Part shown: piece by piece, positions 18,903 through 55,031 of the stretch | How positions within the stretch are numbered: position 1 is the first letter of the stretch | How the letters are laid out: each line of letters starts with the position of its first letter | Origin: Acidobacteriota bacterium | Lineage (GTDB): Bacteria; Acidobacteriota; UBA6911 | Direction: 5' to 3' | Assembly: GCA_963664705.1 (NCBI GenBank) | Contig: OY761556.1 | Span: forward strand, 4,768,001-4,832,000 | Length of the DNA: 64,000 nucleotides | The notes under the pieces: generated by a model | The model's database searches: none | What the model was told of the DNA's origin: nothing | What the model saw: the letters and a program-made list of their open reading frames with translations, nothing else | Program-made: the position numbers and the translations under genes

Positions 18903-21881
18903 TCACTTCCTCAAACAAGAGCGTATCGCCTCAATGACCGCTTCGGAAGGTCCGCTTTTGATCAGATATGCGACGGCGCCGGCTTTACGTATGGCTGCGG
19001 ATTCCTCGCCTTCGTTAAACATGGACAGGCCAATGATTTGTATTTCAGGCATTTCCTGATGAATGATTCTGGTGGCTTGAATCCCGTCCATTCCTGGCAT
19101 GCCAATATCCATCAGAATCACATCAGGCCGAATCTTCCGGACCAATTTCACCGCAGATTCACCATCCGACGCCTCTCCCACGATCTTGATATCCGGCTCC
19201 GCTCCCAGCAAACCAGCCAAACCCTGTCGCATGACCATATGATCGTCTACCAGGGCCACGCGTATTCTTGCAGTTGAATCGGGTTCCTCGGCAGATGCCA
19301 CCGCAACAGAGATCTCTGATTTCGGGCTTTTCCCAACTTCGGAAGATTGCTCCGGCATAATGGCATACGGAGAAATGAGACGAAATCGGCTGCCTTTTCC
19401 TACGGCACTTTCCATCTCAATTCTCCCGCCCAGGTAACTGAGGCGCTCACTGATACTGAAGAGCCCCATACCCGTGCTCTTGTCCTCCCTCGTGCGGAGC
19501 TCATCGGGATCGAATCCCGCACCCTCATCGGCTACTTCCACCTGAATCTGTCCATCAAGCTGGATAACTTCAACGTCCGCCGTCCTGACACCGGCATGCT
19601 TTACAATGTTGAACAGAAGCTCACGAACAGACTGGAATAGCAGGACACTTATTTCCTCGGAAGCACGCTGCATAGGTTCCTGGCAAGCCAGCCTCACAGT
19701 GAGGCCATGTTTGGTCTGCATCCATTTGGCCAACCACTCCAGCGCAGGAAGGAATCCGCCTTTGTGCAGAATAGGGGGACTTAATTCGGCGGTAAGCGAC
19801 CTGGATGTTTCGATCGAGTCATCAATAAGGCTTGCTACGGCTGCGGCCCTTTCCTGTACATCGCCGCCGCGCTCCAGGAGAGCAAGGCTGAATTTGGCTG
19901 CGGCCAGTGTCTGTTGCAGCCCGTCGTGAAGCAGCATCGCCAGCCGCTGTCGTTCGCGCTGCTCAGCCAGCGTCAAATCCGCCGCGAGTTGGCGCAGCTG
20001 CCGCGACCGTTGTTCCAATTCGAGCGTGCGCTCCTCCACCCGTTTCTCCAGTGAGTTGGTAAGCTCCTGCAAACGCTGATCGGCCAACTTCCGTGCAGTA
20101 ATATCCATCTGTACACCGTCCCAGACGGTACTGCCGTCGTCCATCCGGCGCGGTCGAGATCGCAGTCGCATCCAGCGCACCTCGCCATCCGGTCGGCGCA
20201 TGGGCACATCCATGTCGAAGTCGGATTGCTCGTGGATGCATCGTGCTTCCTCTGTCATTAATCGCTGGTAATACTCAGGCGGAATCTGCCCGTGCAACGT
20301 ACCGGCATCGCGCAGGGCATCTTCAATGCGGATGCCATTGAGTTTTTCGATTCCGGCACTGAAATAGGTGAATCTTCCCGCAGCACCATCCGAGCGGACA
20401 TATTGATAAACGGCGCTGTCCGGAAGATTGTCGCCAAGCAGACGTAACCGCTCCTCGCTGTCGCGCAGCGCCTCCTCTGCCCGTTTGCGTGCGATCGTAG
20501 CGCTCAGGAACTCGGCTGTCATCAACAGGATGTCTCCCACCGATTCCGAGAATCCCCCGGTACAGGAGGACATCAGCTTCAGCACGCCATAGGATTGGTT
20601 TCCATACCGAAGCGGAACCAGGATCATCGACCGCAAGCCGATTTTTCTGCAAGCCTCGCGGTCAACCCTCGGATCGGTTTCGGTATCGTCGGAACGCATC
20701 AATTCGCCGCTGGTCATGCAACGACCGGACAAACTGCCCGCTACTTTCAGCCGCAGTCCGACAAACCCGGCGGCAATCCCGCTGGCGGCTTCATATACCA
20801 TTTCCTCGCCGTCAGCGATTTCGAGACTGGCGCCTTCCGCGTTGGTAAGCCGGGACATGCGTTCCAGGACCAGTTGCAGCAATCCCTTGTAGTTCGTATC
20901 GGTCCGGGCAATCTCACGCTGTGTGTCCAAAACAGAAGCCAGCCGCTCGGTCTGAGCCTTCAATATCGATTCAGTCCGCTTGCGGTCGGTGATAGTCTGC
21001 TTTTGGTCCGTAATATCGCTGAAAAAGGTTGCCAGCCCCTCTTCCGTGGGATAACAGCGGCAGTCGAACCACCGGTTCAAAGGCTCCGGATAAAAGCATT
21101 CAAATTGCAGCGGCTTCCGTTCCTCCATGGAACGGCGGAAGTTCACTCCAAGGGGCAGATCGTAGGCAGCCGGCCATAGCTCCCACAGAGATTTGCCCAT
21201 AAGTTGACTGCGCGTCATGCGAAAGGCACTGGTTGCGGCTGGATTTACATGGGTATAGCGCCACTCCCGATCAAAAGCGGCAAAGCAGTCGCTCATCTGC
21301 TCCAGAACCGCGGTGGTTCTTGCGTTCGCCAACTGCAAACCTTCTCGCTGCATACGAAGCTGTTGAATCAGTTCCGTTGAGTTTTCAAGTTCGGTAAGAT
21401 CACTCGCCACGACGCATATGCTGGCTCCGTCCGGTTGGTTGAGCACATTGGCGGAGATATGCGCCGGCAGAGAGGCTCCATCCCCGCCGCAGAAAACCAT
21501 CCGTCTTTTAATGGACTCCTTCTGAACATCGAGTAGTAAGGAAGATGCGGCCTCTTTATCGGTTTCGGCCACGAATTCGCCGAGATTGTGGCCTACAATC
21601 TCCGAATTCGAACATCGGATGAATTGGCTGAACTGGGCATTGCAGAAGAGAATCCTTCCATCAAAAGTAAGGGTGAATGCCGCCTCCTTCATGGTTTCCA
21701 CGATCAGGCGATAGATGGATTCCGTGCCAAACAGCGAAAATACCTGATCCCCGCTGGGGCCCGAAACGATAATGGCGTCCACTTCGCCTTGGCGAATTGC
21801 CCGTAGTGTTTCTTCCGCCTCATGAAGGCGCGTCTGCAAATCCTCAATCAATTCCTGTTTGGATTGCCTCTTGTCCAGCAT
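18903..21881 (-). CDS. Kai-linked hybrid sensor kinase (coiled coil-PAS-PAS-GAF-PAS-HisKA_3-HATPase-REC)
   Basis: N-terminal RLHEAEETLRAIRQGEVDAIIV; H-box ERQRLAMLLHDGLQQ; DEGAGFDP and GMGLFSI; NarL-type receiver VALVDDH...MDIGMP without HTH; 10 bp downstream of kaiB. Confidence 0.9.
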   Translation of the reverse strand: MLDKRQSKQELIEDLQTRLHEAEETLRAIRQGEVDAIIVSGPSGDQVFSLFGTESIYRLIVETMKEAAFTLTFDGRILFCNAQFSQFIRCSNSEIVGHNLGEFVAETDKEAASSLLLDVQKESIKRRMVFCGGDGASLPAHISANVLNQPDGASICVVASDLTELENSTELIQQLRMQREGLQLANARTTAVLEQMSDCFAAFDREWRYTHVNPAATSAFRMTRSQLMGKSLWELWPAAYDLPLGVNFRRSMEERKPLQFECFYPEPLNRWFDCRCYPTEEGLATFFSDITDQKQTITDRKRTESILKAQTERLASVLDTQREIARTDTNYKGLLQLVLERMSRLTNAEGASLEIADGEEMVYEAASGIAAGFVGLRLKVAGSLSGRCMTSGELMRSDDTETDPRVDREACRKIGLRSMILVPLRYGNQSYGVLKLMSSCTGGFSESVGDILLMTAEFLSATIARKRAEEALRDSEERLRLLGDNLPDSAVYQYVRSDGAAGRFTYFSAGIEKLNGIRIEDALRDAGTLHGQIPPEYYQRLMTEEARCIHEQSDFDMDVPMRRPDGEVRWMRLRSRPRRMDDGSTVWDGVQMDITARKLADQRLQELTNSLEKRVEERTLELEQRSRQLRQLAADLTLAEQRERQRLAMLLHDGLQQTLAAAKFSLALLERGGDVQERAAAVASLIDDSIETSRSLTAELSPPILHKGGFLPALEWLAKWMQTKHGLTVRLACQEPMQRASEEISVLLFQSVRELLFNIVKHAGVRTADVEVIQLDGQIQVEVADEGAGFDPDELRTREDKSTGMGLFSISERLSYLGGRIEMESAVGKGSRFRLISPYAIMPEQSSEVGKSPKSEISVAVASAEEPDSTARIRVALVDDHMVMRQGLAGLLGAEPDIKIVGEASDGESAVKLVRKIRPDVILMDIGMPGMDGIQATRIIHQEMPEIQIIGLSMFNEGEESAAIRKAGAVAYLIKSGPSEAVIEAIRSCLRK

Positions 21882-21891
21882 AGCCGCAGGC

Positions 21892-22239
21892 CTATTTCTT
21901 GGGACGAAGATCAAGTCCGACCAGAATCCGTTCCTGATCCGTCAGGTCGCCAATGAATCTTCGTAAGGGTTGAGGTAATTTTCTAATCAGCGTCGGGGCT
22001 GCAATGATTTGTTCACCTGCGGCCAACGTCGGTTGCTTGTAGATGTCGATGATCTGCAGGTCATAGCGACCTTTGAGATGCTGCTCGCAAATCTCGCTTA
22101 TGGATGTTATCGCAGCCGACGACCGCCGGTTGATGCCTGCCACATACAATCTGAGGATGTACGTTTGTTTGGATGTGGTTTTTTTCAGATCTTTCTCGAA
22201 TTCGGCTGCGCTCTTAATAGGTTTCGCTTTTTTGGGCAT
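21892..22239 (-). CDS. kaiB: Circadian clock protein KaiB homolog
   Basis: YILRLYVAG...ICEQHLKGRYDLQIIDI...QIIAAPTLIRKLPQPLRRFIGDL...VGLDL. Confidence 0.95.
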   Translation of the reverse strand: MPKKAKPIKSAAEFEKDLKKTTSKQTYILRLYVAGINRRSSAAITSISEICEQHLKGRYDLQIIDIYKQPTLAAGEQIIAAPTLIRKLPQPLRRFIGDLTDQERILVGLDLRPKK

Positions 22240-22330
22240 GGTTAAGGGAGTTTTATCAGGCCGACAAATGCAAATCCAGCCCCGAAACCAATCTTGCTTC
22301 GACCGGCGACTGGTACCATTGGCCTCATTG

Positions 22331-24028
22331 TCAGATTCTCGCCTTCGTCATAGTTTTCCGATCCGTTGAAATCATCTGCTGCCGATCGGATTCCTCCTGC
22401 TTTGTGATCTTCAGTTCGTTGTCGAGGCTCTGGAGTTTCTGTGTAATGACCGCCGCCTGAGCCTGCAGATTCGCGCGTTCCTGTTCGAGTTCGCGTTGTC
22501 GTTGCTCGGAAGCCTGCTGGTCCGCAAGCACCCGGGCCCGATCGTGTGCCTCCTGAACAAGGCGCGCAGAACCGGTCAGCACCTGGCCGGGACCGACATA
22601 CACCTTGGTCAACCGAATACCATGATCGGTAAGCTGGAACTCCCGCATCTGATTGGAATGAGACATCCCGCGGCTTTTGAGAAGATACAACAACCGGTTT
22701 CGTTCGCCATTGGTTTCCAGCATCCGGACAAGAAGCCAGGTGTCCATCAACGAAGAAATCGCGACATCGCTTTTCTCGAGAGATTCACCGCCTTCCGTGA
22801 GGCTGGTCAGAACCGAGGTGATCTGTCGTGTCTTCAGAAAATCCACGATTCTCGTCATCATTGCGCGAATCTCGATCTCCTCACCAATGGAAGAGAGATT
22901 GGTGACAGGATCCATCACGACGCCGGCGGGATTGAATTCAGTGATCAATTGATGGATTCGGGCCAGATGCATCTCCAATCCACACATTGTTGGTCGCACG
23001 GAATGAAAGAGGAGCAGGTTCCTTTTTCTCCACTTGTCCAAATCGATGCCGATTGATTTCATATTCCGGATAATTTGGTCCGGAGCTTCTTCAAAAGACA
23101 AATAAGCGCACTTTTCGCCTCGGCCACACATCCCGTCGACGAATGCGGCGGCGATACTCGATTTCCCCGTGCCTGCGGTTCCGGATATCAGGACGCTCGT
23201 GCCCCGAAAGTAACCTTTGCCTCCCATCATGGCATCCAACTCTGGAATGCCCGTTGAAACCCGTTCGGTGGTTACAGGATAATCCAGGCCCAGCGAACTG
23301 ATTGGGAGAACGGACAACCCATGTTCATTGATTAAGGTAGGATATTCATTGGTGCCATGCCGGGAGCCGCGGTATTTCACAATACGCAAACGCCGCGTGG
23401 CTACCTGATTGCTAACCCGATGATCCAGGAAGATAACGCAGTCACTGACGTATTCTTCAATGCCGTGGCGGGTCAGCGTATTTTGGCCCTGCTCGCCCGT
23501 TATGATGACTGTCACGCCCTTATTCTTGAGCCAGCGAAAGAGGCGACGCAATTCAGCCCTGAGAATGCTTTCATTCGGCAATCCCGCAAAGAGAGCTTCG
23601 ATAGTATCCAGAACCACGCGCCTGGCGCCCAACTCCTCAATCATGAGATTCAGGCGAACAAAGAGGCCTTCGAGATCATATTCCCCAGTCTCCTCGATTT
23701 CGCTGCGCTCTATATGCACATGATCAATCGCCATCTTTTTCCGGGCGATCAGCCGACGCACATCAAAACCCAGGGAAGCCACATTCTGGATTAATTCCGC
23801 GGCAGTCTCCTCAAAGGACATGAAGACGCCGGGTTCGTCAAACTCCTGAGCGCCTCGAACAATGAACTCCATTGCCAGAAGTGTCTTACCGCTGCCGGCG
23901 CTGCCGCAGATCAATGTTGGTCTGCCACAGGGCAGTCCGCCATCGGTGATTTCGTCGAGACCGGCAATGCCTGTCGGGCATTTTTCAATACCCGGAGAAA
24001 CACTGCGATGCGCGCTTTTTTTGGCCAT
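22331..24028 (-). CDS. kaiC: Circadian clock ATPase/kinase KaiC (double domain, C-terminal coiled-coil extension)
   Basis: CI Walker A GSAGSGKT, CII GTAGTGKS, FEE motifs, KYRGSRH/KSRGMSH arginine fingers, phospho-site segment AISSLMDT, long Q/E/R-rich tail. Confidence 0.96.
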   Translation of the reverse strand: MAKKSAHRSVSPGIEKCPTGIAGLDEITDGGLPCGRPTLICGSAGSGKTLLAMEFIVRGAQEFDEPGVFMSFEETAAELIQNVASLGFDVRRLIARKKMAIDHVHIERSEIEETGEYDLEGLFVRLNLMIEELGARRVVLDTIEALFAGLPNESILRAELRRLFRWLKNKGVTVIITGEQGQNTLTRHGIEEYVSDCVIFLDHRVSNQVATRRLRIVKYRGSRHGTNEYPTLINEHGLSVLPISSLGLDYPVTTERVSTGIPELDAMMGGKGYFRGTSVLISGTAGTGKSSIAAAFVDGMCGRGEKCAYLSFEEAPDQIIRNMKSIGIDLDKWRKRNLLLFHSVRPTMCGLEMHLARIHQLITEFNPAGVVMDPVTNLSSIGEEIEIRAMMTRIVDFLKTRQITSVLTSLTEGGESLEKSDVAISSLMDTWLLVRMLETNGERNRLLYLLKSRGMSHSNQMREFQLTDHGIRLTKVYVGPGQVLTGSARLVQEAHDRARVLADQQASEQRQRELEQERANLQAQAAVITQKLQSLDNELKITKQEESDRQQMISTDRKTMTKARI

Positions 24029-24231
24029 CCTCGAATCCTCGGTTTAGGCGTTGGGGCGCAAGTTGCAGAAAGGGAGCTTGCGCCCGGCTGGAATCATTTT
24101 CAAACACAATAAAGCTCATATTGTTGTAGTGCCAACAATTTAGCAATCAAAAAGGCTCGCTTCGCCTTCATCCCAGGCAGCGCGAGAAGGATGAACCGGT
24201 ATAAGTTGAAGGCAATCATATATTTAATGAC

Positions 24232-24821
24232 TTTGAACCGCGAAGACCTCGAAGACCGCAAAGATCTTTTGGCTAATTTTGCTGTAATGTATAAAGCATC
24301 AAGGATGGAATCCAGCATATGATCTGGCAAGAACGATAACCGCAAAACCTGCAAAAATATTTTCTTTGCGGTCTTCGCGGTTAGTGGGGCTACTAATTCG
24401 GTCAAGTCAGGTTTAATGACTTTTGTCTAAAACCGTGGTTCAGCACCTTCATTTAGTGGGCAAACTCTGGTGTGCAAAGGATAAGATTAGGATCCGACGA
24501 TCAAATCAGGTTCCATAAATAAATGGCGCTGATTAGTTTTTGTATTTGAACCGCGAAGACCTCGAAGACCGCAAAGATTTTTTGGCTAATTTTGCTGTAA
24601 TGTATGAAGCATCCAGGATGGAATCCATCATATGATCTGGCAAGAACGATAACCGCAAAACCTGCAAAAATATTTTCTTTGCGGTCTTCGAGGTCTTCGC
24701 GGTTAGTGGGGCTACTAATTCGGTCAAGTCAGGTTTAATGACTTTTGTCTAAAACCGTGGTTCAGCACCTTCATTTAGTGGGCAAACTTTGGTGTGCAAA
24801 GGATAAGATTAGGATCCGACG
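24232..24821. repeat. Tandem direct repeat, two copies (24232-24499 and 24545-24821), each with an internal inverted repeat
   Basis: Near-identical ~270-bp units, each with AACCGCGAAGACCTCGAAGACCGCAAAGA ... TCTTTGCGGTCTTC(GAGGTCTTC)GCGGTT; copy 2 has 9 extra bp. Confidence 0.93.
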
Positions 24822-24824
24822 CCA

Positions 24825-25637
24825 TTACTCAAAAACTTCACCAGGGGTTGGCCGGTAGGAACGGGCTGGTCGAGATCGGCCGATGCGGGTACCACCCATA
24901 CCAGCGACACCGGAAATCCGGAGAGTCCTGGTGTAAGCATCCATGTCCCTTTTGTGCGTCCAATAACACTCACACGACATGGAGGCAATCCGGCGCTTAT
25001 CAGTGATCTTTATCAAACGCTGACGATATGAAATCAGCCCGCTTGATTTCAGAGCCCCCAGCTCCAAGCTGACGGTTGAGCGATTCACTCCAAGCATGAG
25101 GGACAGGAATTCGTGCGTGACAGGGTAACTGTCATCCTCGGCCCAATCCGACGTCATCAGAAGCCAACGACAAAGCCTCTGTTGCACCGTGTGGAATCTA
25201 TTGCAGAGCACGAGTTGCGTGGATTGATTGTGTAGCTGCTGAAGGAACACCAGCGAGCTTTTGCAGTAAGCTGTGTCGTTCCCCAAATGACGTTTGAGGG
25301 TAGCGGCACTGATCTTAAGGGCCTCGCCAGGAATCTGTACGATATATCGGTGAGCCGAATACTGGTGACCGGTAAGGACTTCGACAGGAAGCCCACCTTC
25401 TCTGCCGACCGCGCCCACTTCAATACTATGTCCGGTTGAGCTCGCAGCAATAATGGATATGAGGCCTGAGTTCAAAAACAGAACCGAGTCGACCGTATCG
25501 CCTGCCTTGAAAAGTACGTGGCCCGGGGGAAGCAAAATGACCTCAAGATCCGGCAGTATTTTCTCCAAAACTGCCTTGGGTAGCGACAGCAGCATCCTGT
25601 TACGAATCGCGGGGCTACTCATTTTATAGCCAGACAT
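24825..25637 (-). CDS. Crp/Fnr family transcriptional regulator
   Basis: cNMP-binding-like domain (SIEVGAVGREG), CNRFHTVQQRLCRWLL, HTH THEFLSLMLGVNRSTVS, C-terminal SCECY. Confidence 0.92.
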   Translation of the reverse strand: MSGYKMSSPAIRNRMLLSLPKAVLEKILPDLEVILLPPGHVLFKAGDTVDSVLFLNSGLISIIAASSTGHSIEVGAVGREGGLPVEVLTGHQYSAHRYIVQIPGEALKISAATLKRHLGNDTAYCKSSLVFLQQLHNQSTQLVLCNRFHTVQQRLCRWLLMTSDWAEDDSYPVTHEFLSLMLGVNRSTVSLELGALKSSGLISYRQRLIKITDKRRIASMSCECYWTHKRDMDAYTRTLRISGVAGMGGTRIGRSRPARSYRPTPGEVFE

Positions 25638-25978
25638 CGAACCCTCATATCCAAAGAGTTATAAATGCCGAGGGGGTGAGAGGGGGAACCGGCTGCTGCT
25701 TCGAGACCAAAACCGACCTACCCCATGCAATAAATCGGGGCTAACTTTATCACCTTTTTGACAACGACGCTGTTGGCCGGCCAACAGGTCCAATTATTTC
25801 TTTTTGAAAATTTGATCTGGGAATGGAACCTTTGCACCGATTGATCTTACCGGACTGAGGCTAGCAAAATGGAGAGGTAAACCGGCGTTTCGTTCCTGAA
25901 GTGCAAATGCAAGGCACGAGGCAGGGGGGAGTTCTTTGTCTCAGGCAGAACAAAGCCCGCACCCACTTCCCTGCAAAC

Positions 25979-26296
25979 CTATTTCCTGGGCCGCAGGTCC
26001 AATCCAACCAAAACCCGCTCGACGTTTGACAAATCGCCTATGATCTTTCGAACCGGCACCGGCAGCTTTCGGACAAGAGTCGGGACTGCGAGAATCTGGT
26101 CGCCTCTGGCAAGTTGAGGATTTTCCAGAAGATCTATCACCTCTATTCGATAGTGGCCATCCAGATGCTCCTCGCAAATCCTCTTTAAATTCGCGAAAGC
26201 AGTCAAAGCCCTGGCAGTGCGGCCTGCTATGTAGAGCCGGAGATCCCAGGTCTCCATCTGCTTTTTGATTTTATTGCCTGATTTTTTTTGGGGCAT
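25979..26296 (-). CDS. kaiB: Second KaiB homolog
   Basis: WDLRLYIAG...[50 protein letters not shown]...VGLDL. Confidence 0.95.
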
Positions 26297-27373: not shown

Positions 27374-27634
27374 AGTTCTCTTTCCTTTGGAAAGAACATC
27401 CAGGCCCGGATAACTAAAGCTCCCCTAAGTGGCCGGCGGATCGCGTCTCTCCCGACATTTCATTCCTATAGTACGTTGTCCCTCGCAGGAAGGTCTCAGG
27501 TGTGTGGCGTATTTTTATCCGCGAACAATTTCATCAGCGGCTTCCGTGCGTATGATGCCCCTGCGGTGAATTTGCCACAACAGCGGGAAATAACGCTCTT
27601 CCCCGTTGTTCTCGCAGGACAACCATTATATTGT

Positions 27635-28624
27635 ATGAACTACAAACCGGATCTGGAAGTGGCGGCACCCCATTCTTTGCCATGTTGTTCCCGTTGGAGG
27701 AAGTTTTTGGTCAGGCAGGCAGGGTACTCCCTGGAGCATATTGCTTTTGAAGGCAAAACTGTAAACCGTTCGAGTCGTTTGCGGCATGCGCCGGCACACG
27801 CCGTCGTCGCCGGCATGGACTCGGACGATCTCACGCAACAGGATCGCTGCGAAGAACCCATCCCCTCGATTTTGCAGGCGGCTGGTTTATCAGAGAAGGC
27901 TTACCGCGCCGCTTCCATGAACCGGCGGCTGAATGCATGCCTGCGGTCCTTGAAAGCAACAACAGTCCCGGAAGCCGCCCATCTCCTCATCAAGCACCCG
28001 GAGCTGAAGGAACCTGCGCTGGACGCTCTCCTGATCGGGGTTACCGAATTTTTCCGTGACCGGCCGGTTTTCGATGCACTCAGCCGGCTTATCGAGACAG
28101 ATCTTCCCCAAAGGACCGGGACTTTGCGTGTCTGGAGTGCAGGGTGCTCCAGCGGAGCGGAATTGTACAGCATGGCCTTTCTCCTTGCAGAAGCCGGGCT
28201 TCTTCACCGGAGCATTCTGTTGGGAACCGACTGCAGGAAATCGGCCATTCGCGAAGCCAGGGCTGGACTCTACAGCGCATCCTGTCTGCAAACCCTGGAT
28301 CCATTGCTTCGAGAGAAATATTTCCGGAAGGTCGGGACGCAATGGCAGGTCCTGGATTCCGTCCGTTCCCATGTTCGGTGCCGGACCCAGGACTTGCTTT
28401 CGGTCTGCGAAAAAGGGCCCTGGGACATCATCCTCTGGAGAAACATGGCCATTTATTTCGAGACAAACGCCAGCCACCAGATTTGGAGCCGCATTACCAA
28501 AGAAATGCGTCCCGGCGGCCTGATCGTCACAGGAAAGGCAGAGCGCCCGCCCCATTCCATCGGTCTTAGTACTCTAAGCAGAAGTATCTATCGCCGGGAA
28601 AAGGGCAGCGGGCGATTGAGATAA
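27635..28624 (+). CDS. cheR: CheR-type protein-glutamate methyltransferase (start uncertain)
   Basis: LLIGVTEFFRD, LRVWSAGCSSGAELYSMA, LGTD, WDIILWRNMAIYF, GGLIVTGKAE. Confidence 0.85.
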   Translation: MNYKPDLEVAAPHSLPCCSRWRKFLVRQAGYSLEHIAFEGKTVNRSSRLRHAPAHAVVAGMDSDDLTQQDRCEEPIPSILQAAGLSEKAYRAASMNRRLNACLRSLKATTVPEAAHLLIKHPELKEPALDALLIGVTEFFRDRPVFDALSRLIETDLPQRTGTLRVWSAGCSSGAELYSMAFLLAEAGLLHRSILLGTDCRKSAIREARAGLYSASCLQTLDPLLREKYFRKVGTQWQVLDSVRSHVRCRTQDLLSVCEKGPWDIILWRNMAIYFETNASHQIWSRITKEMRPGGLIVTGKAERPPHSIGLSTLSRSIYRREKGSGRLR

Positions 28625-28639
28625 GTTGGAGATTTCAGA

Positions 28640-31600
28640 ATGATCCGAAACACAAGGATAGTGACCAGTTTTGTTGCGGTCCTGATTGTAGTCAGCCTTT
28701 TTGGGCTGGCCTCCTACATCAACACCCAACGCCTGATCAGCGGCAACAAGTGGTTACTGCACACACACCAGGTAGTCGAAAACCTCCAGGAAATCCTGTC
28801 TGTACTCAAGGATGCTGAAACCGGACAACGCGGCTATATCCTTTCAGGCCAGGATCACTACCTGGAACCCTATAACATCGCGACCAGCCGCATTGAAAGC
28901 CGATTTGCAATATTGGCTGAACTGATCCAGGACGATGCCGTCCAGCAATCGAACCTTGATCGCCTCCAACGGATGACTGCCTTGAAGCTGGATGAACTGA
29001 AACAGACGATTGAGCTGCGGCGCCGCTCCGGTCTGGACGCGGCCATGCCCATCATCCTCAGCGACCGCGGCAAAAATACAATGGACGACATCCGGGGTCT
29101 CGTCTCGCGGATGGACGAACGCGAACGGGCAGATCTTCAGCTGCAGCAAAAAGATTCCGAGAGCAGAGCGCGGATGACCATGTGGACAATCGCAGCGGGA
29201 CTGCCATTGTCCTTATTGGTTCTGGCGGTAGCGGCCCTCACGCTGACAGGCAGCGGCCTATATACCGATGCAATTGCCGGGCTGGTCACCAAACGATCCC
29301 TGTGGGAAAAGAGATTTCTACGCTATTTCCTTGCCATCGTCGCTGCCGTCCTGGCAGGAATTCTCCGGCAGTGGCTTCTGCATTTTGGCCCCTTGCCGCT
29401 ATACATTACGTTCTACCCCGCCGTTCTGCTGGTGGCCACGATCAGCGGCGGAGGCCCCGGCATCATCACTACTGTCTTGTCGGGATTCATTACCCTCTAC
29501 TATTTCATTACACCCCATGGACAGTTTTCAATCGAATCTCCGTCGGATCTGCTGGCTTTGGCCATCTTTATCGGAACCAACCTGACCCTGTGTGTGATTG
29601 CCGAACGCCTTAGACGGGCCCGTTGGGCCGAGGCCATGAGCATTGCAAAACAGCAGGAATCCGAGGAACTGGCGAAAAAGAATGAAGAGTTGGTCCAGCA
29701 GTCGGAAGAGCTCCTGCAACAATCGGAAGAGCTGGCTCAGCAAAACGAGGAACTCCAGTCCCAGTCCGAGGAAATACAAACGCTCAACACCGAGCTGACC
29801 GGTCGGGAAAACATGCTTCGGAAACTTCTCGAAGCCGCCCGGTTGCATCACTCCGAGGAGTCCGTCCTGAAGGAGGTATGCTCCGCAGCCAAAGATATCC
29901 TGGGCTCGGCAGCTTCAGCGGTTGTTATATGCGAAAAGAAAGGAGAGGCGTTGTTCATCCGCGCGCAAGCCGGATCACGGGAAACACCCAAGCCATGGGC
30001 TATCGAGGGATCCTTTCCGGGGCTGGTGATGCAGGAAGGACGCACGGCCTGCCTGAACGATTCCTCGCTGCGCCCGGACCTGAAGCTTCTCCAGGTTCCC
30101 GAGGCAACGCCATTCCAGTCCGCCCTGTCAACGCCGCTGCGTGTCGGCAGCGAGAATTTCGGAGCCGTCACCGTCTATGGCCTGCATAAACAGCAGTGGA
30201 CCGAAGAACAGTTTCGTCTGGTTGAATGGCTTGCCACACAATGCGGCCATATTTTAGAAACTCTCAAATTGCAGGATCAGCTGCGCGCAACAGCCGATCA
30301 GAACCGGCTGCTTTCCGATTTGCTTGAACACTCGGAACAGCCCTTCGGCATCGGTTATCCCGATGGGAGATTGGGTTATGTCAATGCGGCATTTGAGCGT
30401 CTCACCGGATATACAAGGCCAGAGCTTGAAACCATGGACTGGGCCAATGTATTGACGCCTCCACAGTGGCGATCCATCGAGCAGGAAAAGCTCAAAGAAC
30501 TCCAATCCACCGGACAGTCCGCACGCTATGCCAAGGAATATGCTCGAAAGGATGGCACCTGTATTCCCATAGAGCTCCTGGTTCATTTGATCAAAGACGG
30601 CAAGGACCAACCGCTCTACTACTACTCCTTTATCACCGATATTTCGGAACGCAAAAAGACCGAAGCCGAGGTGCAGAAACTCGCGCAGCAGCGTCAGTTG
30701 GCCTTGGATGCGTCCCACCTGGGCTGGTGGCATTTTGATCCGTTGACGCAGGTATCCTCCTGGGATGTGCGTTACCGCGAAATTTTTGGCGTATCCGGAC
30801 ACAGCCGCCCCAACGAGGAAATACTCAAGCGTCTCCATCCCGAAGACCTTCCCGGCGTCTGGGCCAAAGTTGAAGCCGCTCTGAATCCGGCGGATCCCAA
30901 GCCCTATTCGGCCGAATACCGCATTAACCTGCCGGATGGATCCATGAAATGGATCGAAGCCCATGGCGTGGCAACTTTCGACGGTAAAGATTCGCAGCGG
31001 CGCGCAGTGGCCCTTGTCGGCACGGTGGCGGATATTTCCGAACGAAAGCGGGCAGAGGAGTTGCTGCGGGACACCAATACTCTGCTGGAACAGAGAGTGG
31101 AGGAGAGAACAAAAGACCTGGCGCAGCGAGCCGCACAGCTTCGAGCCCTTGCCGGCGAACTGACTATGACCGAGCAGCGCGAAAGAAGTCGCCTGGCCAG
31201 GGTATTGCACGATCATCTGCAGCAACTGCTGGTCGCCGCCAAGTTTCGGCTGGCAATTCTTGGCAAAGGTGCCGAAGATCTGATCAAAAAGGCGATCACC
31301 GAAGTCGAAAGCCTGGTCGACGAATCGATTGCGGCCTCGCGATCCCTGACTGCGGAACTCAGTCCGCCGATCCTTCACGAGGCCGGACTGAAGGAGGGAT
31401 TGGAATGGCTGGCCCGAAGAATGGCGGATAAACAGGGGCTGATCGTGGATCTGGAAATGGAAGATATCGCGCCCTTGCCCGACGATCTGAAGATCATGCT
31501 GTTTGAATCGGTCCGGGAGTTGCTGTTCAACATTGTCAAGCACGCGCATACACATTCCGCATCCCTGAATCTGCGACGGGTAGACGGGCTTCTGCAATTA

Positions 31601-32239
31601 ACCATCTCGGATGAAGGGGATGGCTTCGATCCGAATGCACTGCCGAAACCCGGGGAATCCGGCCATGGATTCGGACTATTCAGTGTTCGGGAGAGACTGG
31701 AGCTTTTTGAGGGAAGCATGGAAATTCAAAGTGCTCCCGCTCAAGGCAGCCGAATCTTTCTGTCTGTCCCGATACCGGAACACTCCATTGCACCCAAGCA
31801 CGTCGATCAGCCCCCAGTGTCGCCGGAAATACCGGTCTTTCAGCAGCGCTCCGGCCCGGCGCCGGATAAAAAGATCCGCGTGCTGCTGGCGGACGATCAC
31901 TCTGTCGTCAGACAGGGGATTGCCGCCATGCTCGGCATGGAGTTGGACATGGAAGTTGTTGGAGGCGCATCCACGGGACATGAGGCGATTGCGCTCGCAG
32001 AAAAGTTGCTGCCGGATGTAATACTTATGGATATGAGTATGCCGGTTCTTAACGGGATTGAGGCCACGCGTACCATTAGCAGGGATTATCCCGAAATCAG
32101 AATTATTGGACTGTCGATGTTTGAAGACTCTGAACGGGCACAAGCCATGCGGGATGCGGGCGCTTCCGATTATTTGATGAAAAGCGGACCCGCGGAAGAG
32201 CTACTGCGTGCCATACGGGACGTTATTCATCATCGGTAA
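28640..32239 (+). CDS. Hybrid sensor kinase (CHASE3-DUF4118-coiled coil-GAF-PAS-PAS-HisKA_3-HATPase-REC)
   Basis: DAETGQRGYILSG (CHASE3), LYITFYPAVLL (DUF4118-like TM), EEL heptads, H-box LARVLHDHLQQ, receiver VLLADDH...MDMSMP. Confidence 0.92.
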   Translation: MIRNTRIVTSFVAVLIVVSLFGLASYINTQRLISGNKWLLHTHQVVENLQEILSVLKDAETGQRGYILSGQDHYLEPYNIATSRIESRFAILAELIQDDAVQQSNLDRLQRMTALKLDELKQTIELRRRSGLDAAMPIILSDRGKNTMDDIRGLVSRMDERERADLQLQQKDSESRARMTMWTIAAGLPLSLLVLAVAALTLTGSGLYTDAIAGLVTKRSLWEKRFLRYFLAIVAAVLAGILRQWLLHFGPLPLYITFYPAVLLVATISGGGPGIITTVLSGFITLYYFITPHGQFSIESPSDLLALAIFIGTNLTLCVIAERLRRARWAEAMSIAKQQESEELAKKNEELVQQSEELLQQSEELAQQNEELQSQSEEIQTLNTELTGRENMLRKLLEAARLHHSEESVLKEVCSAAKDILGSAASAVVICEKKGEALFIRAQAGSRETPKPWAIEGSFPGLVMQEGRTACLNDSSLRPDLKLLQVPEATPFQSALSTPLRVGSENFGAVTVYGLHKQQWTEEQFRLVEWLATQCGHILETLKLQDQLRATADQNRLLSDLLEHSEQPFGIGYPDGRLGYVNAAFERLTGYTRPELETMDWANVLTPPQWRSIEQEKLKELQSTGQSARYAKEYARKDGTCIPIELLVHLIKDGKDQPLYYYSFITDISERKKTEAEVQKLAQQRQLALDASHLGWWHFDPLTQVSSWDVRYREIFGVSGHSRPNEEILKRLHPEDLPGVWAKVEAALNPADPKPYSAEYRINLPDGSMKWIEAHGVATFDGKDSQRRAVALVGTVADISERKRAEELLRDTNTLLEQRVEERTKDLAQRAAQLRALAGELTMTEQRERSRLARVLHDHLQQLLVAAKFRLAILGKGAEDLIKKAITEVESLVDESIAASRSLTAELSPPILHEAGLKEGLEWLARRMADKQGLIVDLEMEDIAPLPDDLKIMLFESVRELLFNIVKHAHTHSASLNLRRVDGLLQLTISDEGDGFDPNALPKPGESGHGFGLFSVRERLELFEGSMEIQSAPAQGSRIFLSVPIPEHSIAPKHVDQPPVSPEIPVFQQRSGPAPDKKIRVLLADDHSVVRQGIAAMLGMELDMEVVGGASTGHEAIALAEKLLPDVILMDMSMPVLNGIEATRTISRDYPEIRIIGLSMFEDSERAQAMRDAGASDYLMKSGPAEELLRAIRDVIHHR

Positions 32240-32527
32240 ATCTCGGATCCGTTGCACTGGGAGCGCCATCGCTCGCCGCAGCAAATTAAAAGCACCCCAC
32301 ACCCGCACCATTCGTTTTGCAATACTGCCCAAAGTGTGATAATTAGAGCTCACTAACACGTTAACTATTGCAAGGCCCACTGCACATCATTCTGCGGTCT
32401 ATGCTTTTGCGCTGAAGTCCGGATAGTCGATGCGTACGAATAGTCGAAAGTCAGTAATCATCCGGCAGTTCGAAAAATCTATTTGAGTTATTTGTCTGAA
32501 TCGCTGTGCAAGGGTTGGAGCGGGATT

Positions 32528-35500
32528 ATGCGAATGAACAGCTATTCGAGAACGATTGCGGCGGTAGCACTTCCCTTTCTGGCATGCGGAGTTCAATGGT
32601 CTCTTTGGCAAACCCTAAGCCCCTTCGTCTGGTTCCTGTTTTTTCCCACGGTATTTTTCAGCGCATGGCTTGGCGGCATGGTGGGAGGACTTCTTTCCAC
32701 AATTATCTCGGCAACACTTGTCTGGTACGTCTTCATTCCGTCCCAATTCTCATGGACTCTAAAAAATTACAGCAATGCCTATTCGGTAATCATGTTCCTT
32801 GGCATGGGCTGGCTATTCAGTTGGGTGTTCACAAGGCTCAGCCGAACAACCCGGCAACTCATGAATTCGAATGAGCAGATTACGCAGCTCTATGAGAAGA
32901 CCAAGGAAATCGACACACTCAAAACTCAATTCTTTGCCAATATCAGTCACGAGTTGAGAACTCCGCTTGCCCTCATCCTGGGGCCGACCTCGAAATGGCT
33001 CCGCGAAAAGGCCCTGGATGAGAACCTACGGAATGATATCGAGATCATCAATCGAAATGCGCAACTGCTTCATCATCATGTGGATGAGCTGCTCGACTTT
33101 GCGAAGCTGGAAGATGGCAAGATGGGCTTATTGTACGCGAAGACTGATCTGGCCCACCAGATACGAATGCTGGCCTCCTACTTTGCACTGCTTGCTGATG
33201 AGCAACGCATAAATTTTTCAGTGCATGCGGATGACCCCGTGGATGCAGAGGTCGATCTGGAAAAATTCCATCGGATCGTATTAAACGTTCTTTCCAATGC
33301 CTTCAAGTTCACGCCGGAAGGCGGAGCGATATCGGTGGATCTGCGGAGCATGACGGATCTGGTGCTTATCCGTATCAGCGATACGGGACCGGGTATTCCG
33401 GAGGGGAGACAGGAATCGATCTTCGAAGCATTCAGGCAATTGGAGGAAACATCGACGCGCACTCACGGCGGGACGGGACTTGGCCTGTCCATAGCGAAGG
33501 AGTTCGTCAAGTTGCATGGAGGGACCATATCGGTCAAAAACCGGGAAACCGGTGGTTCGGAGTTTTCCATCGTCCTTCCTAACAAGGCACCTCTGGGAAC
33601 CAAGATATCGAGCCTGACACCGGAAAAAGCCACGCAGATGGAGGATCTGGGCAATCATCTTTCGGCAGAATTGCGGCATGCGCTGAAACCTGCACCTTCT
33701 GATCTGCCCTCAGACGCCGAAAGACCACTCATCCTGGTCGTTGAAGATAACGTGGATATGAATCAGTTCATCTGTTCTGTTCTGCAGCCCGGCTTTCGTG
33801 TGGTTGTCGCCTATGATGGAAAAGAAGGCGTAGCCAAGGCACTGGCAAACAAGCCGGACCTTATCGTTACCGACATTATGATGCCGGGTACGAGCGGCGA
33901 AATGATGCTCCAGGAAATTCAGTGTCATCCAGAACTTGAACATACTCCCATTATCATCCTCACTGCAAAAGCAGATGATTCACTGCAACTCAGGATGTTG
34001 CAGGAAGGCATCCGCGATTACATCCAGAAGCCTTTTCTGCCGGAGGTCCTGTTAGCCAAAGTTTCTACCATCGTGAATGAACACCAGGACACCGTCCGGA
34101 AATTGCGGGAAGGAGACCTCAAGCTCGAAAAGGCATTCCAGAATGCACCCGTCATGCTGGCGATCATGGATCAGGAAACCGGCAGGTACCTTGAGGTAAA
34201 TGACGAAGTCCTGCGAGCTTCGGGATATGAGCGTAAAGAGATCCTGGGGCGATCCGACACTGAAATTGGCTGGAGTTACCCGGAGAACCAGCTGCGGATG
34301 CTTTCAGAAATACATGAAAAGGGCCGGATACGCAGAATGGAACTGCAGCTCAGAACGAAAGACGGCCATACAATCATTGGGCGCGTGAATGGTGAAATCA
34401 TTTCTATTTCCGGGAAAGATGCGCTGCTGACCGTAACAGAGGACATTACAGATCAGGTTAAGATCGCCGAAAAGCTTACGGAATCAAACCGCCGCCTGTC
34501 GCTCGCCCTGGATTCCGCGGAGCTGGCTGTCTGGGATTGGGATGTGCGCAATAATACGATGTATTGGGATAACCGGATGTTTGAATTATATGGAGTGACC
34601 AGAACTGCATTCTCTTCCAATATTGATGCATGGCATGGTGGACTTCATCCGGAGGACAAGGATTGCGCCATTGCGGAATGTAATGCGGCTCTCGCAGGGA
34701 CGCGGACTTTTGATACCACGTTTCGGGTCAAGCCTCCTAATGGAACGACCAAATACATAAAGGCGAATGGCACTGTTGTTCGAGACATGGACGGCAAAGC
34801 GATTCGGATGCTGGGAGTCAATCGGGACATTACCGCGGCCACCCTGGCAGCAGCCGAAAAGGCGCAGCTCGAAGCAAGGCTTCAACATGCGCAAAAAATG
34901 GAAGCTATCGGTACGCTCGCGGGCGGCATTGCTCATGACTTCAATAATCTGCTCGGCGCCATCATGGGAAATACGGAGCTTTGCCTCATGAGTCTGCCTG
35001 AAGAGGGCGAAATCACAGAGAACCTTCGGGATGTCATGGCTGCATCCGAACGGGCCAAAGCGCTTGTACAGCAGATCCTGGCATTCAGCAGAAAAAGAGA
35101 GAGGCGAATCTCGCCGGTAGACATTAACCAAATCGTTACTGAAGCCATGAAGCTTCTGATTTCCGTAATACCCAAAACAATTGATATACAGCTGGAACTC
35201 AACGCGGATGGAGGCACTGTCCTGGCGGATGCGACGGAGCTTCACCAGGTGGTTATGAATCTGTGCACAAATGCCTATCAGGCTATGGCGGAAACCGGCG
35301 GTGTTTTAAAAGTGACGCTATCGAAATTGCGCGTGGACAATCGCGAAACGGATGCGGTTCCGAATCTCACCCAGGGGAGTTATATACGCCTCACCGTTAC
35401 CGATTCAGGGCCCGGCATGGATGAACAGACTTTGGCCAGAATTTTTGAACCTTACTTTACAACCAAAGTGCACGGGAAAGGGACGGGACTCGGGCTTGCC

Positions 35501-36016
35501 CTCGTTCATGGCATTGTCTATGCGCTAAAGGGAACGATTCAGGTCTTTAGCACCCCGGGGCAGGGGACTTCCTTTGCTGTCTATCTTCCTCAGCAGGAGG
35601 AGCCTTCGTGCGAAGCGGATTCGCAGGATAGAGCGGCTTCGAGCGGCAATGGCCGCATCCTTCTTGTGGACGATGAACCGTCACTCGCCCGGCTGGGCAG
35701 AAAGATACTCGAGGGTCTTGGTTATGCTGTCCAGGAATGCACTGACCCGATGGAGGCAATCCACCTTTTTGAGAGCGGTCCCTTCAGCTTCGACGCAATT
35801 GTTACAGACCAAACCATGCCTGGTTTAACGGGATCGGACCTCATTCAAAAGATCAAGGATATCAGGCCCGAAATGGCTGCGGTTCTGTGTACGGGATTCA
35901 GTGAGTTGATGGACGCGACCCGGGCAACGGAGCAAGGCATAAAATTCGTTCAAAAGCCTTATACCCGGGACAGCCTTGGCATTGCCCTTGCGGAAGCCAT
36001 TTCAGGTCGTGAATGA
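32528..36016 (+). CDS. Hybrid kinase with two kinase cores (DUF4118-HisKA-HATPase-REC-PAS-PAS-HisKA-HATPase-REC)
   Basis: H-boxes FFANISHELRTPL and GGIAHDFNNLL; G-boxes GGTGLGL and GKGTGLGL; receivers LVVEDN...TDIMMP and LLVDDE...TDQTMP. Confidence 0.92.
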   Translation: MRMNSYSRTIAAVALPFLACGVQWSLWQTLSPFVWFLFFPTVFFSAWLGGMVGGLLSTIISATLVWYVFIPSQFSWTLKNYSNAYSVIMFLGMGWLFSWVFTRLSRTTRQLMNSNEQITQLYEKTKEIDTLKTQFFANISHELRTPLALILGPTSKWLREKALDENLRNDIEIINRNAQLLHHHVDELLDFAKLEDGKMGLLYAKTDLAHQIRMLASYFALLADEQRINFSVHADDPVDAEVDLEKFHRIVLNVLSNAFKFTPEGGAISVDLRSMTDLVLIRISDTGPGIPEGRQESIFEAFRQLEETSTRTHGGTGLGLSIAKEFVKLHGGTISVKNRETGGSEFSIVLPNKAPLGTKISSLTPEKATQMEDLGNHLSAELRHALKPAPSDLPSDAERPLILVVEDNVDMNQFICSVLQPGFRVVVAYDGKEGVAKALANKPDLIVTDIMMPGTSGEMMLQEIQCHPELEHTPIIILTAKADDSLQLRMLQEGIRDYIQKPFLPEVLLAKVSTIVNEHQDTVRKLREGDLKLEKAFQNAPVMLAIMDQETGRYLEVNDEVLRASGYERKEILGRSDTEIGWSYPENQLRMLSEIHEKGRIRRMELQLRTKDGHTIIGRVNGEIISISGKDALLTVTEDITDQVKIAEKLTESNRRLSLALDSAELAVWDWDVRNNTMYWDNRMFELYGVTRTAFSSNIDAWHGGLHPEDKDCAIAECNAALAGTRTFDTTFRVKPPNGTTKYIKANGTVVRDMDGKAIRMLGVNRDITAATLAAAEKAQLEARLQHAQKMEAIGTLAGGIAHDFNNLLGAIMGNTELCLMSLPEEGEITENLRDVMAASERAKALVQQILAFSRKRERRISPVDINQIVTEAMKLLISVIPKTIDIQLELNADGGTVLADATELHQVVMNLCTNAYQAMAETGGVLKVTLSKLRVDNRETDAVPNLTQGSYIRLTVTDSGPGMDEQTLARIFEPYFTTKVHGKGTGLGLALVHGIVYALKGTIQVFSTPGQGTSFAVYLPQQEEPSCEADSQDRAASSGNGRILLVDDEPSLARLGRKILEGLGYAVQECTDPMEAIHLFESGPFSFDAIVTDQTMPGLTGSDLIQKIKDIRPEMAAVLCTGFSELMDATRATEQGIKFVQKPYTRDSLGIALAEAISGRE

Positions 36017-36021
36017 TTTCC

Positions 36022-36327
36022 CGGGAGCGCCGGCGTTTCGCCTAAGGTCATTTGCCTTTTTTCGGGCGTTTTTCTTTCGCCCCTTCAGGGCTCCTATTTT
36101 TTCATTATTCTACCAGGGGTTCGCTCCGCTCACCCCTGGCTACAATCTGCCGCGCCTCCGGCGCTTAGTGTAGATGGAACAAAGTTCCAGCGCCGGAGGC
36201 GCGAAAGATAGTAGCCCCGGGCGAGCTTGCGAGCCCGGGGTTATATTCCGGGCTCAAAGAGCCCTGAAGGGGCGAAAGAACGGCAATTGCAAAAAAGGCC
36301 ATTGGCATTAGGCATCTCGCCGGCAAG
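36022..36327. repeat. Composite REP/MITE-like element
   Basis: Inner 36040-36313 has imperfect terminal inverted repeats (GCCTAA...TTCTTTCGCCCC / GGGGCGAAAGAA...TTAGGC) and hairpins CCAGGGGTTCGCTCCGCTCACCCCTGG and CCCCGGGCGAGCTTGCGAGCCCGGGG; flanked by GGGAGCGCCGGCG and CTCGCCGGCAAG. Confidence 0.85.
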
Positions 36328-36538
36328 AGCCGCAGTGGGCCCCGGCTTCATTTCGTTATTCAACCTGCAAAAAGTATCCGTCACCCGGCTGGACGCGAAC
36401 GCTCCCAACAGTTTTGCTCCCAATAAAGACAGGTATGGAGTAAAATCACCCTTCATCGAAAACCTTCATAATCGCCTCATACGACGAGCCAGTACTGTTG
36501 GCGCTGAGTCGGGTGAAGTTTGTCCGAAAGGAAGCAGT

Positions 36539-41407: not shown

Positions 41408-41426
41408 TCTCTCTTTCTCTTCCCAC

Positions 41427-41493
41427 GAAAACAACGAAGACCGCGGAAAACACAGATATGATCTCCGTGCCTTCCGCGGTCTTCCGTGTTTTC
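41427..41493. repeat. Intergenic inverted repeat sharing the GAAGACCGC core of the 24-kb repeat
   Basis: GAAAACAACGAAGACCGCGGAA ... TTCCGCGGTCTTCCGTGTTTTC. Confidence 0.7.
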
Positions 41494-41498
41494 AGCGG

Positions 41499-41723
41499 CT
41501 ACCCACCCTCTAAAAAGGGATAGAGCTTGATGGAGTCGCCGTCTTTAATGACGCTGTTCAGCGGAGCCCATGCATCATTGATGAGCAGCATGCCGACATC
41601 GTCATCGGTAAGCCCGAGTCTGGCTTCAAGCTGCGCCAGGCTGAGAGACTCACCGATATCCAGCGTGTCATGCCTTTTGCCCATCCGCTCTACCAGATTC
41701 AACCCGAACTCAATTTCAATCAT
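41499..41723 (-). CDS. MoaD/ThiS-family sulfur carrier
   Basis: 74 aa, beta-grasp size, ends IKDGDSIKLYPFLEGG with the C-terminal GG. Confidence 0.9.
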   Translation of the reverse strand: MIEIEFGLNLVERMGKRHDTLDIGESLSLAQLEARLGLTDDDVGMLLINDAWAPLNSVIKDGDSIKLYPFLEGG

Positions 41724-41741
41724 ACCGTTCCCTTGGGCCTT

Positions 41742-47353: not shown

Positions 47354-47388
47354 AAATGAACCTCCGGATCGGCAAAGTGTGGATCTAT

Positions 47389-52448: not shown

Positions 52449-52456
52449 CCGATATC

Positions 52457-55001: not shown

Positions 55002-55031
55002 TACGCTATAACCACTTTTTACGGAATCACA

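What the first reader, a model, noticed from the sequence alone, without database searches (positions are those of the whole stretch)
18903..26296. KaiA-less kaiB-crp-kaiC-kaiB-kinase locus: possible hourglass timer wired to two-component output
Seen: a full double-domain KaiC with Ser-Ser at the phospho-site position (AISSLMDT) and a long coiled-coil tail, two KaiB paralogs, a co-oriented Crp regulator and a hybrid kinase directly after kaiB. No kaiA is present in the window. Known: Rhodobacter-type KaiC2/KaiB2 systems have SS sites and a coiled-coil tail and work as KaiA-independent, ATP/ADP-driven timers. Inference: this non-phototroph may use Kai as an energy-state or stress timer. The kinase N-terminus (EAEETLRAIRQGEVDAIIV) may be the Kai-docking input in place of SasA, with Crp as an output.
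Basis: partly seen in the sequence, partly recalled or inferred. Interest (0 to 1): 0.7.

Follow-up and report, generated by a model that had tools for sequence, protein, structure and literature searches.

The report
Hourglass clock kinase carries Kai-linked tag
A non-photosynthetic bacterium carries a KaiA-less KaiC–KaiB operon of a known 'hourglass timer' type whose sensor kinase starts with an unnamed ~45-residue module found almost only right behind kaiB across bacteria and archaea (including the Rhodobacter model timer), which is likely the missing plug linking these timers to their outputs, whereas the neighbouring crp gene is probably incidental.

Summary
Observation confirmed: kaiB–crp–(repeats)–kaiC–kaiB–kinase. 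KaiC is KaiC2-type (Ser425/Ser426, long tail, 52% to R. sphaeroides KaiC); no KaiA or photosynthetic reaction-centre match in the 98%-complete genome. kaiC2–kaiB–PAS/kinase operons are already published. The interesting part is the kinase N-terminal module (helix–GEVDA–hairpin): no Pfam/NCBIfam/PHROGs family, 5,610 sequence clusters, grafted onto at least seven output types. Searched alone, it has kaiB directly upstream in 77 of 79 loci (the other two lie at contig ends); 44 of 47 KaiC-selected loci with room have it; in a cyanobacterial draw it occurs in 9 of 10 KaiC2 genomes and 0 of 37 with only other KaiCs; it stays with kaiB when kaiC moves; and it heads the kinase encoded 5 bp after kaiB in the R. 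sphaeroides KD131 hourglass operon. Binding to Kai proteins is inferred from genomics only and remains untested. Crp is poorly supported as an output: no module, 796 bp of genome-wide palindromic repeats before kaiC, not found in 40 relatives, Crp genes beside only 6 of 188 kai loci (p=0.06). The scan noted this module before on other DNA.

The parts
25979..26296 (-). kaiB, 'up' class (R. sphaeroides-like); orthologue of the gene that normally sits between kaiC and the second kaiB, here displaced upstream
   Evidence: PF07689 5e-26; best PDB match 8fwj KaiB; tree groups it with the middle kaiB of the closest cassettes
24825..25637 (-). Crp/Fnr-family regulator (cNMP-binding-like domain + HTH); lacks the Kai-linked module; probably not a conserved part
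24221..24821 (.). two ~320-bp copies of a REP/BIME-like repeat with 29-bp perfect inverted arms, present in 28 clusters genome-wide
   Evidence: short-read contigs break here
22331..24028 (-). KaiC2-type double-domain KaiC, 565 aa, Ser425/Ser426, extended C-terminal tail
21892..22239 (-). kaiB, 'dn' class, 10 nt upstream of the kinase start
21705..21851 (-). Kai-linked N-terminal module of the kinase (residues 11-59): predicted helix, GEVDA turn, beta-hairpin, leading into PAS1
18903..21881 (-). soluble hybrid histidine kinase: module-PAS-PAS-GAF-PAS-HisKA_3 (His652)-HATPase-receiver (Asp925), no DNA-binding domain

Best explanation
This is a KaiA-less KaiC2–KaiB operon with its dedicated sensor kinase, and it likely works as an ATP/ADP-driven switch whose state is likely read out by the kinase's N-terminal module docking on KaiB. 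Shown here: gene content, KaiC2 identity, intact catalytic motifs, and a module that is genomically tied to kaiB. Inferred from R. sphaeroides (PMC10076222): KaiC would form a coiled-coil dodecamer, autophosphorylate without KaiA at high ATP, and bind fold-switched KaiB and dephosphorylate at low ATP/ADP. Inferred here: the module's helix-hairpin would bind KaiB (as KidA's PAS region binds fold-switched KaiB in Synechococcus), passing the state through PAS1 to His652 and the internal receiver Asp925; the final response regulator is unknown. In this non-phototroph the input would be energy state rather than light. The crp gene is probably a later neighbour.
For: KaiC: 639 bits to PDB 8dba versus at most 364 bits to any non-Rhodobacter-type entry; 52.4% to KD131 KaiC; in the Ser-Ser clade with the KD131 protein, apart from Ser-Thr clades. 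Module-only query: kaiB within 450 bp upstream in 77 of 79 genome loci, the other two lie 32 and 186 bp from a contig start. KaiC-only query: module within 2.5 kb downstream in 44 of 47 metagenome loci with 1.5 kb of room, of 80 returned. Plasmids: all 13 records with KaiC at 51% or more also hit the module, none of the 3 with 34-36% KaiC do (9 of the 13 are one species); in the 5 inspected the module gene follows kaiB directly, 5 bp after it in KD131. Cyanobacterial draw of 121 genomes: module in 9, all among the 10 with KaiC2, 0 of 37 with only 31-37% KaiCs. Own-phylum draw of 201: all 7 KaiC2 places outside the window's genome and one unpublished genome have kaiB then the module within 830 bp. 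Favouring KaiB over KaiC: no locus has kaiC followed by the module without kaiB between; in G215 the module gene follows two kaiB genes 198 kb from kaiC; 3 of 79 loci with room have kaiB+module without adjacent kaiC; it also accompanies KaiC2s with short tails (11 of 115 scored KaiCs). Portability: fused to HisKA (52 of 79), HisKA_3 (13), HWE (6), HisKA_2 (4), GGDEF/EAL, sigma-54 activator and SpoIIE (1 each), sometimes in 2-3 copies per protein; single copy in this genome.
Against: All support for docking is genomic association; operon co-inheritance alone could give much of it, and loci are phylogenetically non-independent. KaiC2-kaiB pairs exist without the module: 3 of 47 metagenome loci, G273 and second copies in G166 and G269, and G081 and G056. 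The core turn resembles a generic helix-Gly-strand motif of substrate-binding proteins; weak hits of that kind occur mid-protein without kai genes. Most genome loci were caught by the exact word AIRQGEVD, so divergent members are under-sampled. 74 of 121 cyanobacterial-draw genomes gave no KaiC match at all, so that search is incomplete. Deleting Synechocystis kaiC2/kaiB2 left rhythms intact (PMC11372060, passage), so timer function is not general. No response regulator is encoded next to the kinase.
Confidence: 0.5

Rival explanations
1. The module binds KaiC directly (CI ring or coiled-coil tail), as SasA does and as kinases of KaiB-less KaiC systems are reported to; its position behind kaiB is just operon order.
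For: It tracks the KaiC2 clade and a divergent form appears in the sister clade (L028, L029); its first half is a coiled-coil-like helix; Pseudomonas KaiC-like proteins interact with their kinase (bioRxiv 2022.01.26.477890, abstract).
Against: It stays with kaiB when kaiC is elsewhere and occurs with tail-less KaiC2s; it is not a thioredoxin/SasA-like or receiver-like domain.
Confidence: 0.2
2. The module is only a dimerisation/cap element of this PAS lineage; the kinase is co-inherited and acts as an input (e.g. redox sensing, as suggested for Rhodobacter) or in a parallel stress pathway, with no clock-state readout.
For: Nearly always followed by PAS (75 of 79); generic turn motif; an input role was proposed in print (PMC5520375 passage citing Min et al. 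2005); Kai homologues serve stress responses in Legionella and Pseudomonas.
Against: The module is better conserved than the PAS behind it (mean column identity 65% versus 43% with PAS included) while outputs are freely swapped; this genome's other PAS kinases lack it; strong hits away from any kai gene were not found in the three phylum draws.
Confidence: 0.2
3. Crp is a functional part of the cassette (transcriptional output or regulator of kai expression), co-transcribed with the displaced kaiB.
For: Co-oriented and between two kai genes; Crp-family genes lie within 1.5 kb of kai genes in 6 of 188 other loci, in L115 directly after kaiB where the kinase normally sits; an earlier scan note describes a module-bearing Crp (e1-4266417, unchecked).
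Against: No module on this Crp; no homologue at E<=1e-10 in 40 relatives, 4 of which have KaiC2 operons; by tblastn 0 of 79 genome and 0 of 80 metagenome kai loci carry this subfamily; near-versus-far enrichment not significant (6 vs 3, p=0.064); these genomes hold 2-9 Crp-HTH matches each; 341-bp and 796-bp gaps, the latter with strong hairpin repeats.
Confidence: 0.1

Closest known systems
R. (Cereibacter) sphaeroides KD131 KaiBC hourglass (Pitsawong et al. 2023, PMC10076222; PDB 8DBA, 8FWI, 8FWJ)
   Same: KaiC2 clade, Ser-Ser sites, extended tail, no KaiA, KaiB of the same class as the window's upstream kaiB, and a kinase with the same N-terminal module directly after kaiB.
   Different: Host is a non-phototroph; two KaiB classes instead of one; kinase is a HisKA_3-receiver hybrid, not HWE; kaiB displaced and crp plus repeats inserted. 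The paper's text has no occurrence of 'histidine' or 'SasA'.
kaiC-kaiB-PAS/HK operons of R. palustris and R. sphaeroides (Ma et al. 2016, PMC4794148) and the 'first kaiC context' of De Luca et al. 2011 (PMC3164672)
   Same: kaiC-kaiB followed by a PAS histidine kinase or GGDEF/EAL protein is described as the rule outside cyanobacteria.
   Different: The passages read do not define the shared N-terminal module of the kaiB-associated kinases; De Luca's RtaNt domain belongs to the kaiB-less group and is receiver-like.
SasA, CikA and KidA of Synechococcus elongatus
   Same: Signalling proteins that plug into Kai complexes by an N-terminal or accessory domain; KidA binds fold-switched KaiB through N-terminal PAS domains and has GGDEF/EAL outputs (PMC9478674).
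   Different: The module is neither KaiB-like (SasA) nor a pseudo-receiver (CikA; recalled); it was not found in 37 drawn genomes having only non-KaiC2 KaiCs. KidA itself was not compared.
KaiB-less KaiC-like + kinase systems (Pseudomonas, Ramlibacter, Leptolyngbya)
   Same: KaiC coupled to a dedicated kinase; stress or stationary-phase roles.
   Different: No KaiB, different KaiC clade, different (receiver-like) kinase N-terminus.

Membership tests
KaiC2 subgroup | Double RecA-like domain with Walker A, catalytic EE and arginine-finger motifs in both halves | tested here: met
KaiC2 subgroup | Ser-Ser phosphorylation sites | tested here: met
   Ser425/Ser426 align to S413/S414 of KaiC-RS
KaiC2 subgroup | C-terminal extension about 50 aa longer than KaiC1/3 | tested here: met
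   115 aa after KSRG vs 40-69 in Ser-Thr clades; aligns to the 8dba tail
KaiC2 subgroup | Phylogenetic grouping with R. sphaeroides KaiC | tested here: met
   FastTree, 95 sequences, midpoint root, clade support 0.94-1.0; metagenome loci left out
KaiBC hourglass timer (R. sphaeroides type) | No KaiA in the genome | tested here: met
   PF07688 and PF08673 no match, controls rang; KaiA3 not searched with its own profile; genome 98% complete
KaiBC hourglass timer (R. sphaeroides type) | Dodecamer, KaiA-independent phosphorylation, KaiB- and ATP/ADP-dependent dephosphorylation | not testable with these tools
   needs biochemistry
kaiC-kaiB-PAS/HK operon | kaiC, kaiB and a PAS kinase adjacent and co-oriented | tested here: met
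   gaps of 91 and 10 nt
SasA-type Kai output kinase | N-terminal KaiB-like thioredoxin domain | tested here: not met
   no KaiB/SasA family hit in the kinase or in 86 module sequences; predicted helix + hairpin
Kai-interacting output protein (works like SasA/KidA) | Physical binding to KaiB or KaiC | not tested
KaiABC / KaiA3B3C3 self-sustained oscillator | KaiA or KaiA3 and Ser-Thr KaiC1/KaiC3 | tested here: not met

The most novel reading that the evidence does not exclude
The ~45-residue module is an undescribed, portable Kai-docking domain: the KaiC2 world's equivalent of SasA's sensor, used in thousands of bacterial and archaeal proteins to wire an ATP/ADP-sensing KaiBC switch to whichever output (four kinase classes, c-di-GMP enzymes, sigma-54 activators, PP2C phosphatases) is fused behind it. 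It would name the missing output of the R. sphaeroides hourglass (RSKD131_RS21470), and the two KaiB classes may split KaiC-binding and output-recruiting roles.
Probability: 0.55. Interest if true: 0.78.

Novelty: new variant of a known kind. Interest (0 to 1): 0.52.

Why it matters
How KaiA-less KaiBC timers pass their state to the cell is open: the structural work on the R. sphaeroides system does not discuss the kinase encoded 5 bp behind its kaiB. A short, family-less module shared by that kinase and by thousands of otherwise unrelated output proteins gives a precise, cheap test (one 60-residue peptide plus already purified KaiB/KaiC) and a marker for finding Kai-controlled outputs in non-photosynthetic bacteria and methanogens. 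The locus itself is an ordinary, rearranged member of a published operon type.

Tried and rejected
Complex prediction (KaiB versus module-PAS dimer) was not available; no result. A single-chain fold of a database KaiB-module-PAS fusion (P0009, 65-row mostly unpaired alignment) gave no support for an interface: pTM 0.51, hairpin pLDDT about 57-63, similar to the isolated fold; this is no evidence against binding. A first alignment for it (A6) was misaligned and dropped. KaiB-module fusions are all single-member records, several with frameshift-like junk, and none of 87 module hits in L023-L108 was in frame with kaiB: treated as likely read-through artefacts, not Rosetta-stone evidence. A possible kaiB 3' remnant between kaiC and the downstream kaiB was not significant (85 of 400 shuffles as good). 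Promoter/terminator scan matched chance levels (6 vs 6.2; 11 vs 10.2). No RNA holder listed. Foldseek of module+PAS returned only PAS folds; PDB sequence search of the module best E 0.067; the Atlas gave only unnamed hypothetical clusters for a homologue. My first crp screen by tblastn with the window's Crp was too narrow; a Crp profile later found 9 Crp genes in the loci. The kinase frame was wrong and redone. The draw centred on G041 was meant as a cyanobacterial control but only 10 of 121 genomes had KaiC, so it was not used as such; it was repeated around G166. Base composition shows no distinct foreign signature.
Full report
Observation. The window lies in a single-contig 6.89-Mb genome, 98% complete, 6% contamination. 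Two contigs of a same-genus relative have the same lengths and kai genes as records titled Acidobacteriota, so the host is most likely an acidobacterium (inference). On the minus strand are kaiB (26296-25979), crp (25637-24825), kaiC (24028-22331), kaiB (22239-21892) and a 992-aa kinase starting 10 nt later. Domains: KaiB x2, KaiC, cNMP-binding + Crp HTH, and PAS-PAS-GAF-PAS-HisKA_3-HATPase-receiver, with His652 and Asp925 in their motifs. KaiA, RsbU_N and both reaction-centre families give no match while their controls ring. The 796 bp between crp and kaiC hold two ~320-bp copies of a repeat with 29-bp perfect inverted arms, with 25 exact arm copies and 28 clusters in the genome. Short-read contigs break there, both sides at similar depth (these runs may be the source sample).

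KaiC and KaiB. KaiC matches the R. sphaeroides structure 8dba at 639 bits over residues 12-564, tail included; the next family is at 364 bits or less. Ser425/Ser426 sit where 8fwi has its two Glu substitutions. A 95-sequence tree puts it in the Ser-Ser clade with the KD131 protein, apart from Ser-Thr KaiCs. The two KaiBs belong to two recurring classes; the usual order is kaiC-kaiB(up)-kaiB(dn)-kinase, and the window's upstream kaiB groups with the middle gene of its closest cassettes, so it has been displaced (inference). kaiC-kaiB(dn)-kinase without a middle gene also occurs in 7 metagenome loci (L117, 126, 127, 163, 169, 171, 172). KaiC2 is patchy in relatives: 4 of 40, 2 of 24 in the genus.

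What is known. De Luca et al. (PMC3164672, section 17 read whole) state that outside cyanobacteria almost all kaiC-kaiB clusters have a kinase or GGDEF/EAL gene immediately downstream. Ma et al. (PMC4794148, passages) name a kaiC-B-PAS/HK operon in R. palustris and R. sphaeroides; Schmelling et al. (PMC5520375, passages) cite a suggestion that this kinase feeds redox signals in (the cited 2005 paper was not seen). Pitsawong et al. (preprint part 1 of 6 and term search; Nature version passages) describe the ATP/ADP hourglass and contain no 'histidine' or 'SasA'. Köbler et al. (PMC11372060, passages) note clock-independent roles for some KaiC2B2. [quoted passage not shown] So operon and timer type are known.

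The module. Residues 11-59 of the kinase have no Pfam, NCBIfam or PHROGs family (86 members scanned, only weak substrate-binding-protein hits) and no PDB relative. It is predicted as a helix, a Gly-Glu-Val-Asp turn and a beta-hairpin ahead of PAS1, at moderate confidence. A profile finds 5,610 clusters at 50% identity (4,111 at E<=1e-10); in 137 of the best 150 the match starts within the first 31 residues, and some proteins carry two or three copies. In 79 full-length bearers (7 truncated or near-duplicate ones left out) the outputs are HisKA 52, HisKA_3 13, HWE 6, HisKA_2 4, and one each of GGDEF/EAL, sigma-54 activator and SpoIIE. Record titles span Acidobacteriota, Planctomycetota, Cyanobacteria, Proteobacteria, Nitrospirota, Actinomycetota, Methanoculleus and Bathyarchaeota. 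I found no description of it in eight literature searches; the library lacks most subscription papers, and supplements (notably De Luca Fig. S6, whose legend mentions an unspecified 'N-terminal region') were not read. Earlier scan notes had spotted it on other DNA.

Two-way synteny. Module first: 77 of 79 loci have kaiB within 450 bp upstream, the other two are at contig starts; 66 have kaiC upstream, 10 lack room, 3 lack it. KaiC first: 44 of 47 metagenome loci with room, out of 80 (a few at only 22-30 bits). Plasmids: 13 of 13 KaiC2 records, 0 of 3 distant KaiC records; a 14th weak module hit has no kai genes within 6 kb. The KD131 plasmid carries kaiC-kaiB-HWE kinase, the kinase starting 5 bp after kaiB and scoring 56 bits for the module; its KaiB is the 8fwj sequence. 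In a 121-genome draw around a Coleofasciculus genome the module is in 9 genomes, all among the 10 with KaiC2, and in none of 37 with only 31-37% KaiCs; 74 genomes gave no KaiC match, a limit of the search. In a second draw 5 of 7 KaiC2 genomes have it. In the own-phylum draw of 201, 7 of 7 KaiC2 places (window's genome and one unpublished genome left out) have it; 5 weak hits are mid-protein look-alikes without kaiB. Exceptions are real: G273, G081, G056 and second copies in G166 and G269 have kaiC2-kaiB without it. Kin are not independent, so no p-value is claimed.

Which partner. kaiC is never followed by the module without a kaiB between; in G215 the module gene follows two kaiB genes 198 kb from kaiC; kaiB-module cassettes without adjacent kaiC occur in L079, L087, L088 and a second cassette of L037; short-tailed KaiC2s keep it. 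This points to KaiB more than to KaiC or its tail, but gene order is indirect evidence and binding is untested.

Crp. It lacks the module, has no homologue at E<=1e-10 in 40 relatives, and its subfamily is absent from the 79 and 80 kai loci above by tblastn. A broader profile finds Crp genes within 1.5 kb of kai genes in 6 of 188 loci and farther off in 3 (p=0.064), in varying positions; one (L115) takes the kinase's place. Five relatives carry 2-9 Crp-HTH matches each. A loose association with signalling islands is possible; a conserved output role is not shown.

Verdict. A real, rearranged member of the published KaiC2-KaiB-PAS/kinase operons. Best mechanism (0.5): energy-state switch read through module-KaiB docking. 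Interest 0.52; new variant of a known kind.

Noticed in passing
window 24221-24821 and 27 other clusters in G000: REP/BIME-like repeat family with 29-bp perfect inverted arms around a ~100-nt core (hairpin -74 kcal/mol), often in tandem arrays of up to 12 hits; no associated transposase looked for.
   Followed up: partly
L109 6986-8422 (NC_011962.1, RSKD131_RS21470): The R. sphaeroides KD131 hourglass genes are on plasmid pRSKD131A and are followed after 5 bp by an HWE kinase bearing the module.
   Followed up: yes
L028 5884-6723 (-) and L029 7149-7259 (-): KaiCs sister to KaiC2 (38-41% identity) have kaiB followed by a kinase with a divergent module-like motif, below threshold.
   Followed up: partly
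L115 2800-3508: kaiC-kaiB-kaiB followed directly by a Crp/Fnr regulator without the module, in place of the kinase.
   Followed up: partly
L093 577-3933 (-), L121 6375-6521 (-): In a Methanoculleus locus and a similar metagenome locus a second module-bearing gene is divergently transcribed upstream of kaiC.
   Followed up: no
L206 and L207 (G056:C121, G109:C80): Ser-Thr-clade KaiC matches lie in open frames of about 1,380 codons, possibly KaiC fused to a downstream signalling protein.
   Followed up: no
window 27476-40033 (+): Divergent signalling cluster next to the locus: CheR-like methyltransferase without CheB, a CHASE3 HisKA_3-receiver hybrid of the same output type as the Kai kinase, a double-kinase hybrid and a five-PAS hybrid.
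   Followed up: no
window 46517-53143 (-): 1083-aa multiheme cytochrome c, two family-less ORFs (636, 291 aa) and a TPR protein in a row; possible extracellular electron-transfer cluster.
   Followed up: no
window 40286-44356 (-): Radical SAM/SPASM, aldehyde:ferredoxin oxidoreductase and ThiF genes together, suggesting an anaerobic tungsten/molybdopterin AOR cluster.
   Followed up: no
window 54228-58520: Two DUF2202 genes flank a sensor kinase and sigma-54 response regulator pair.
   Followed up: no
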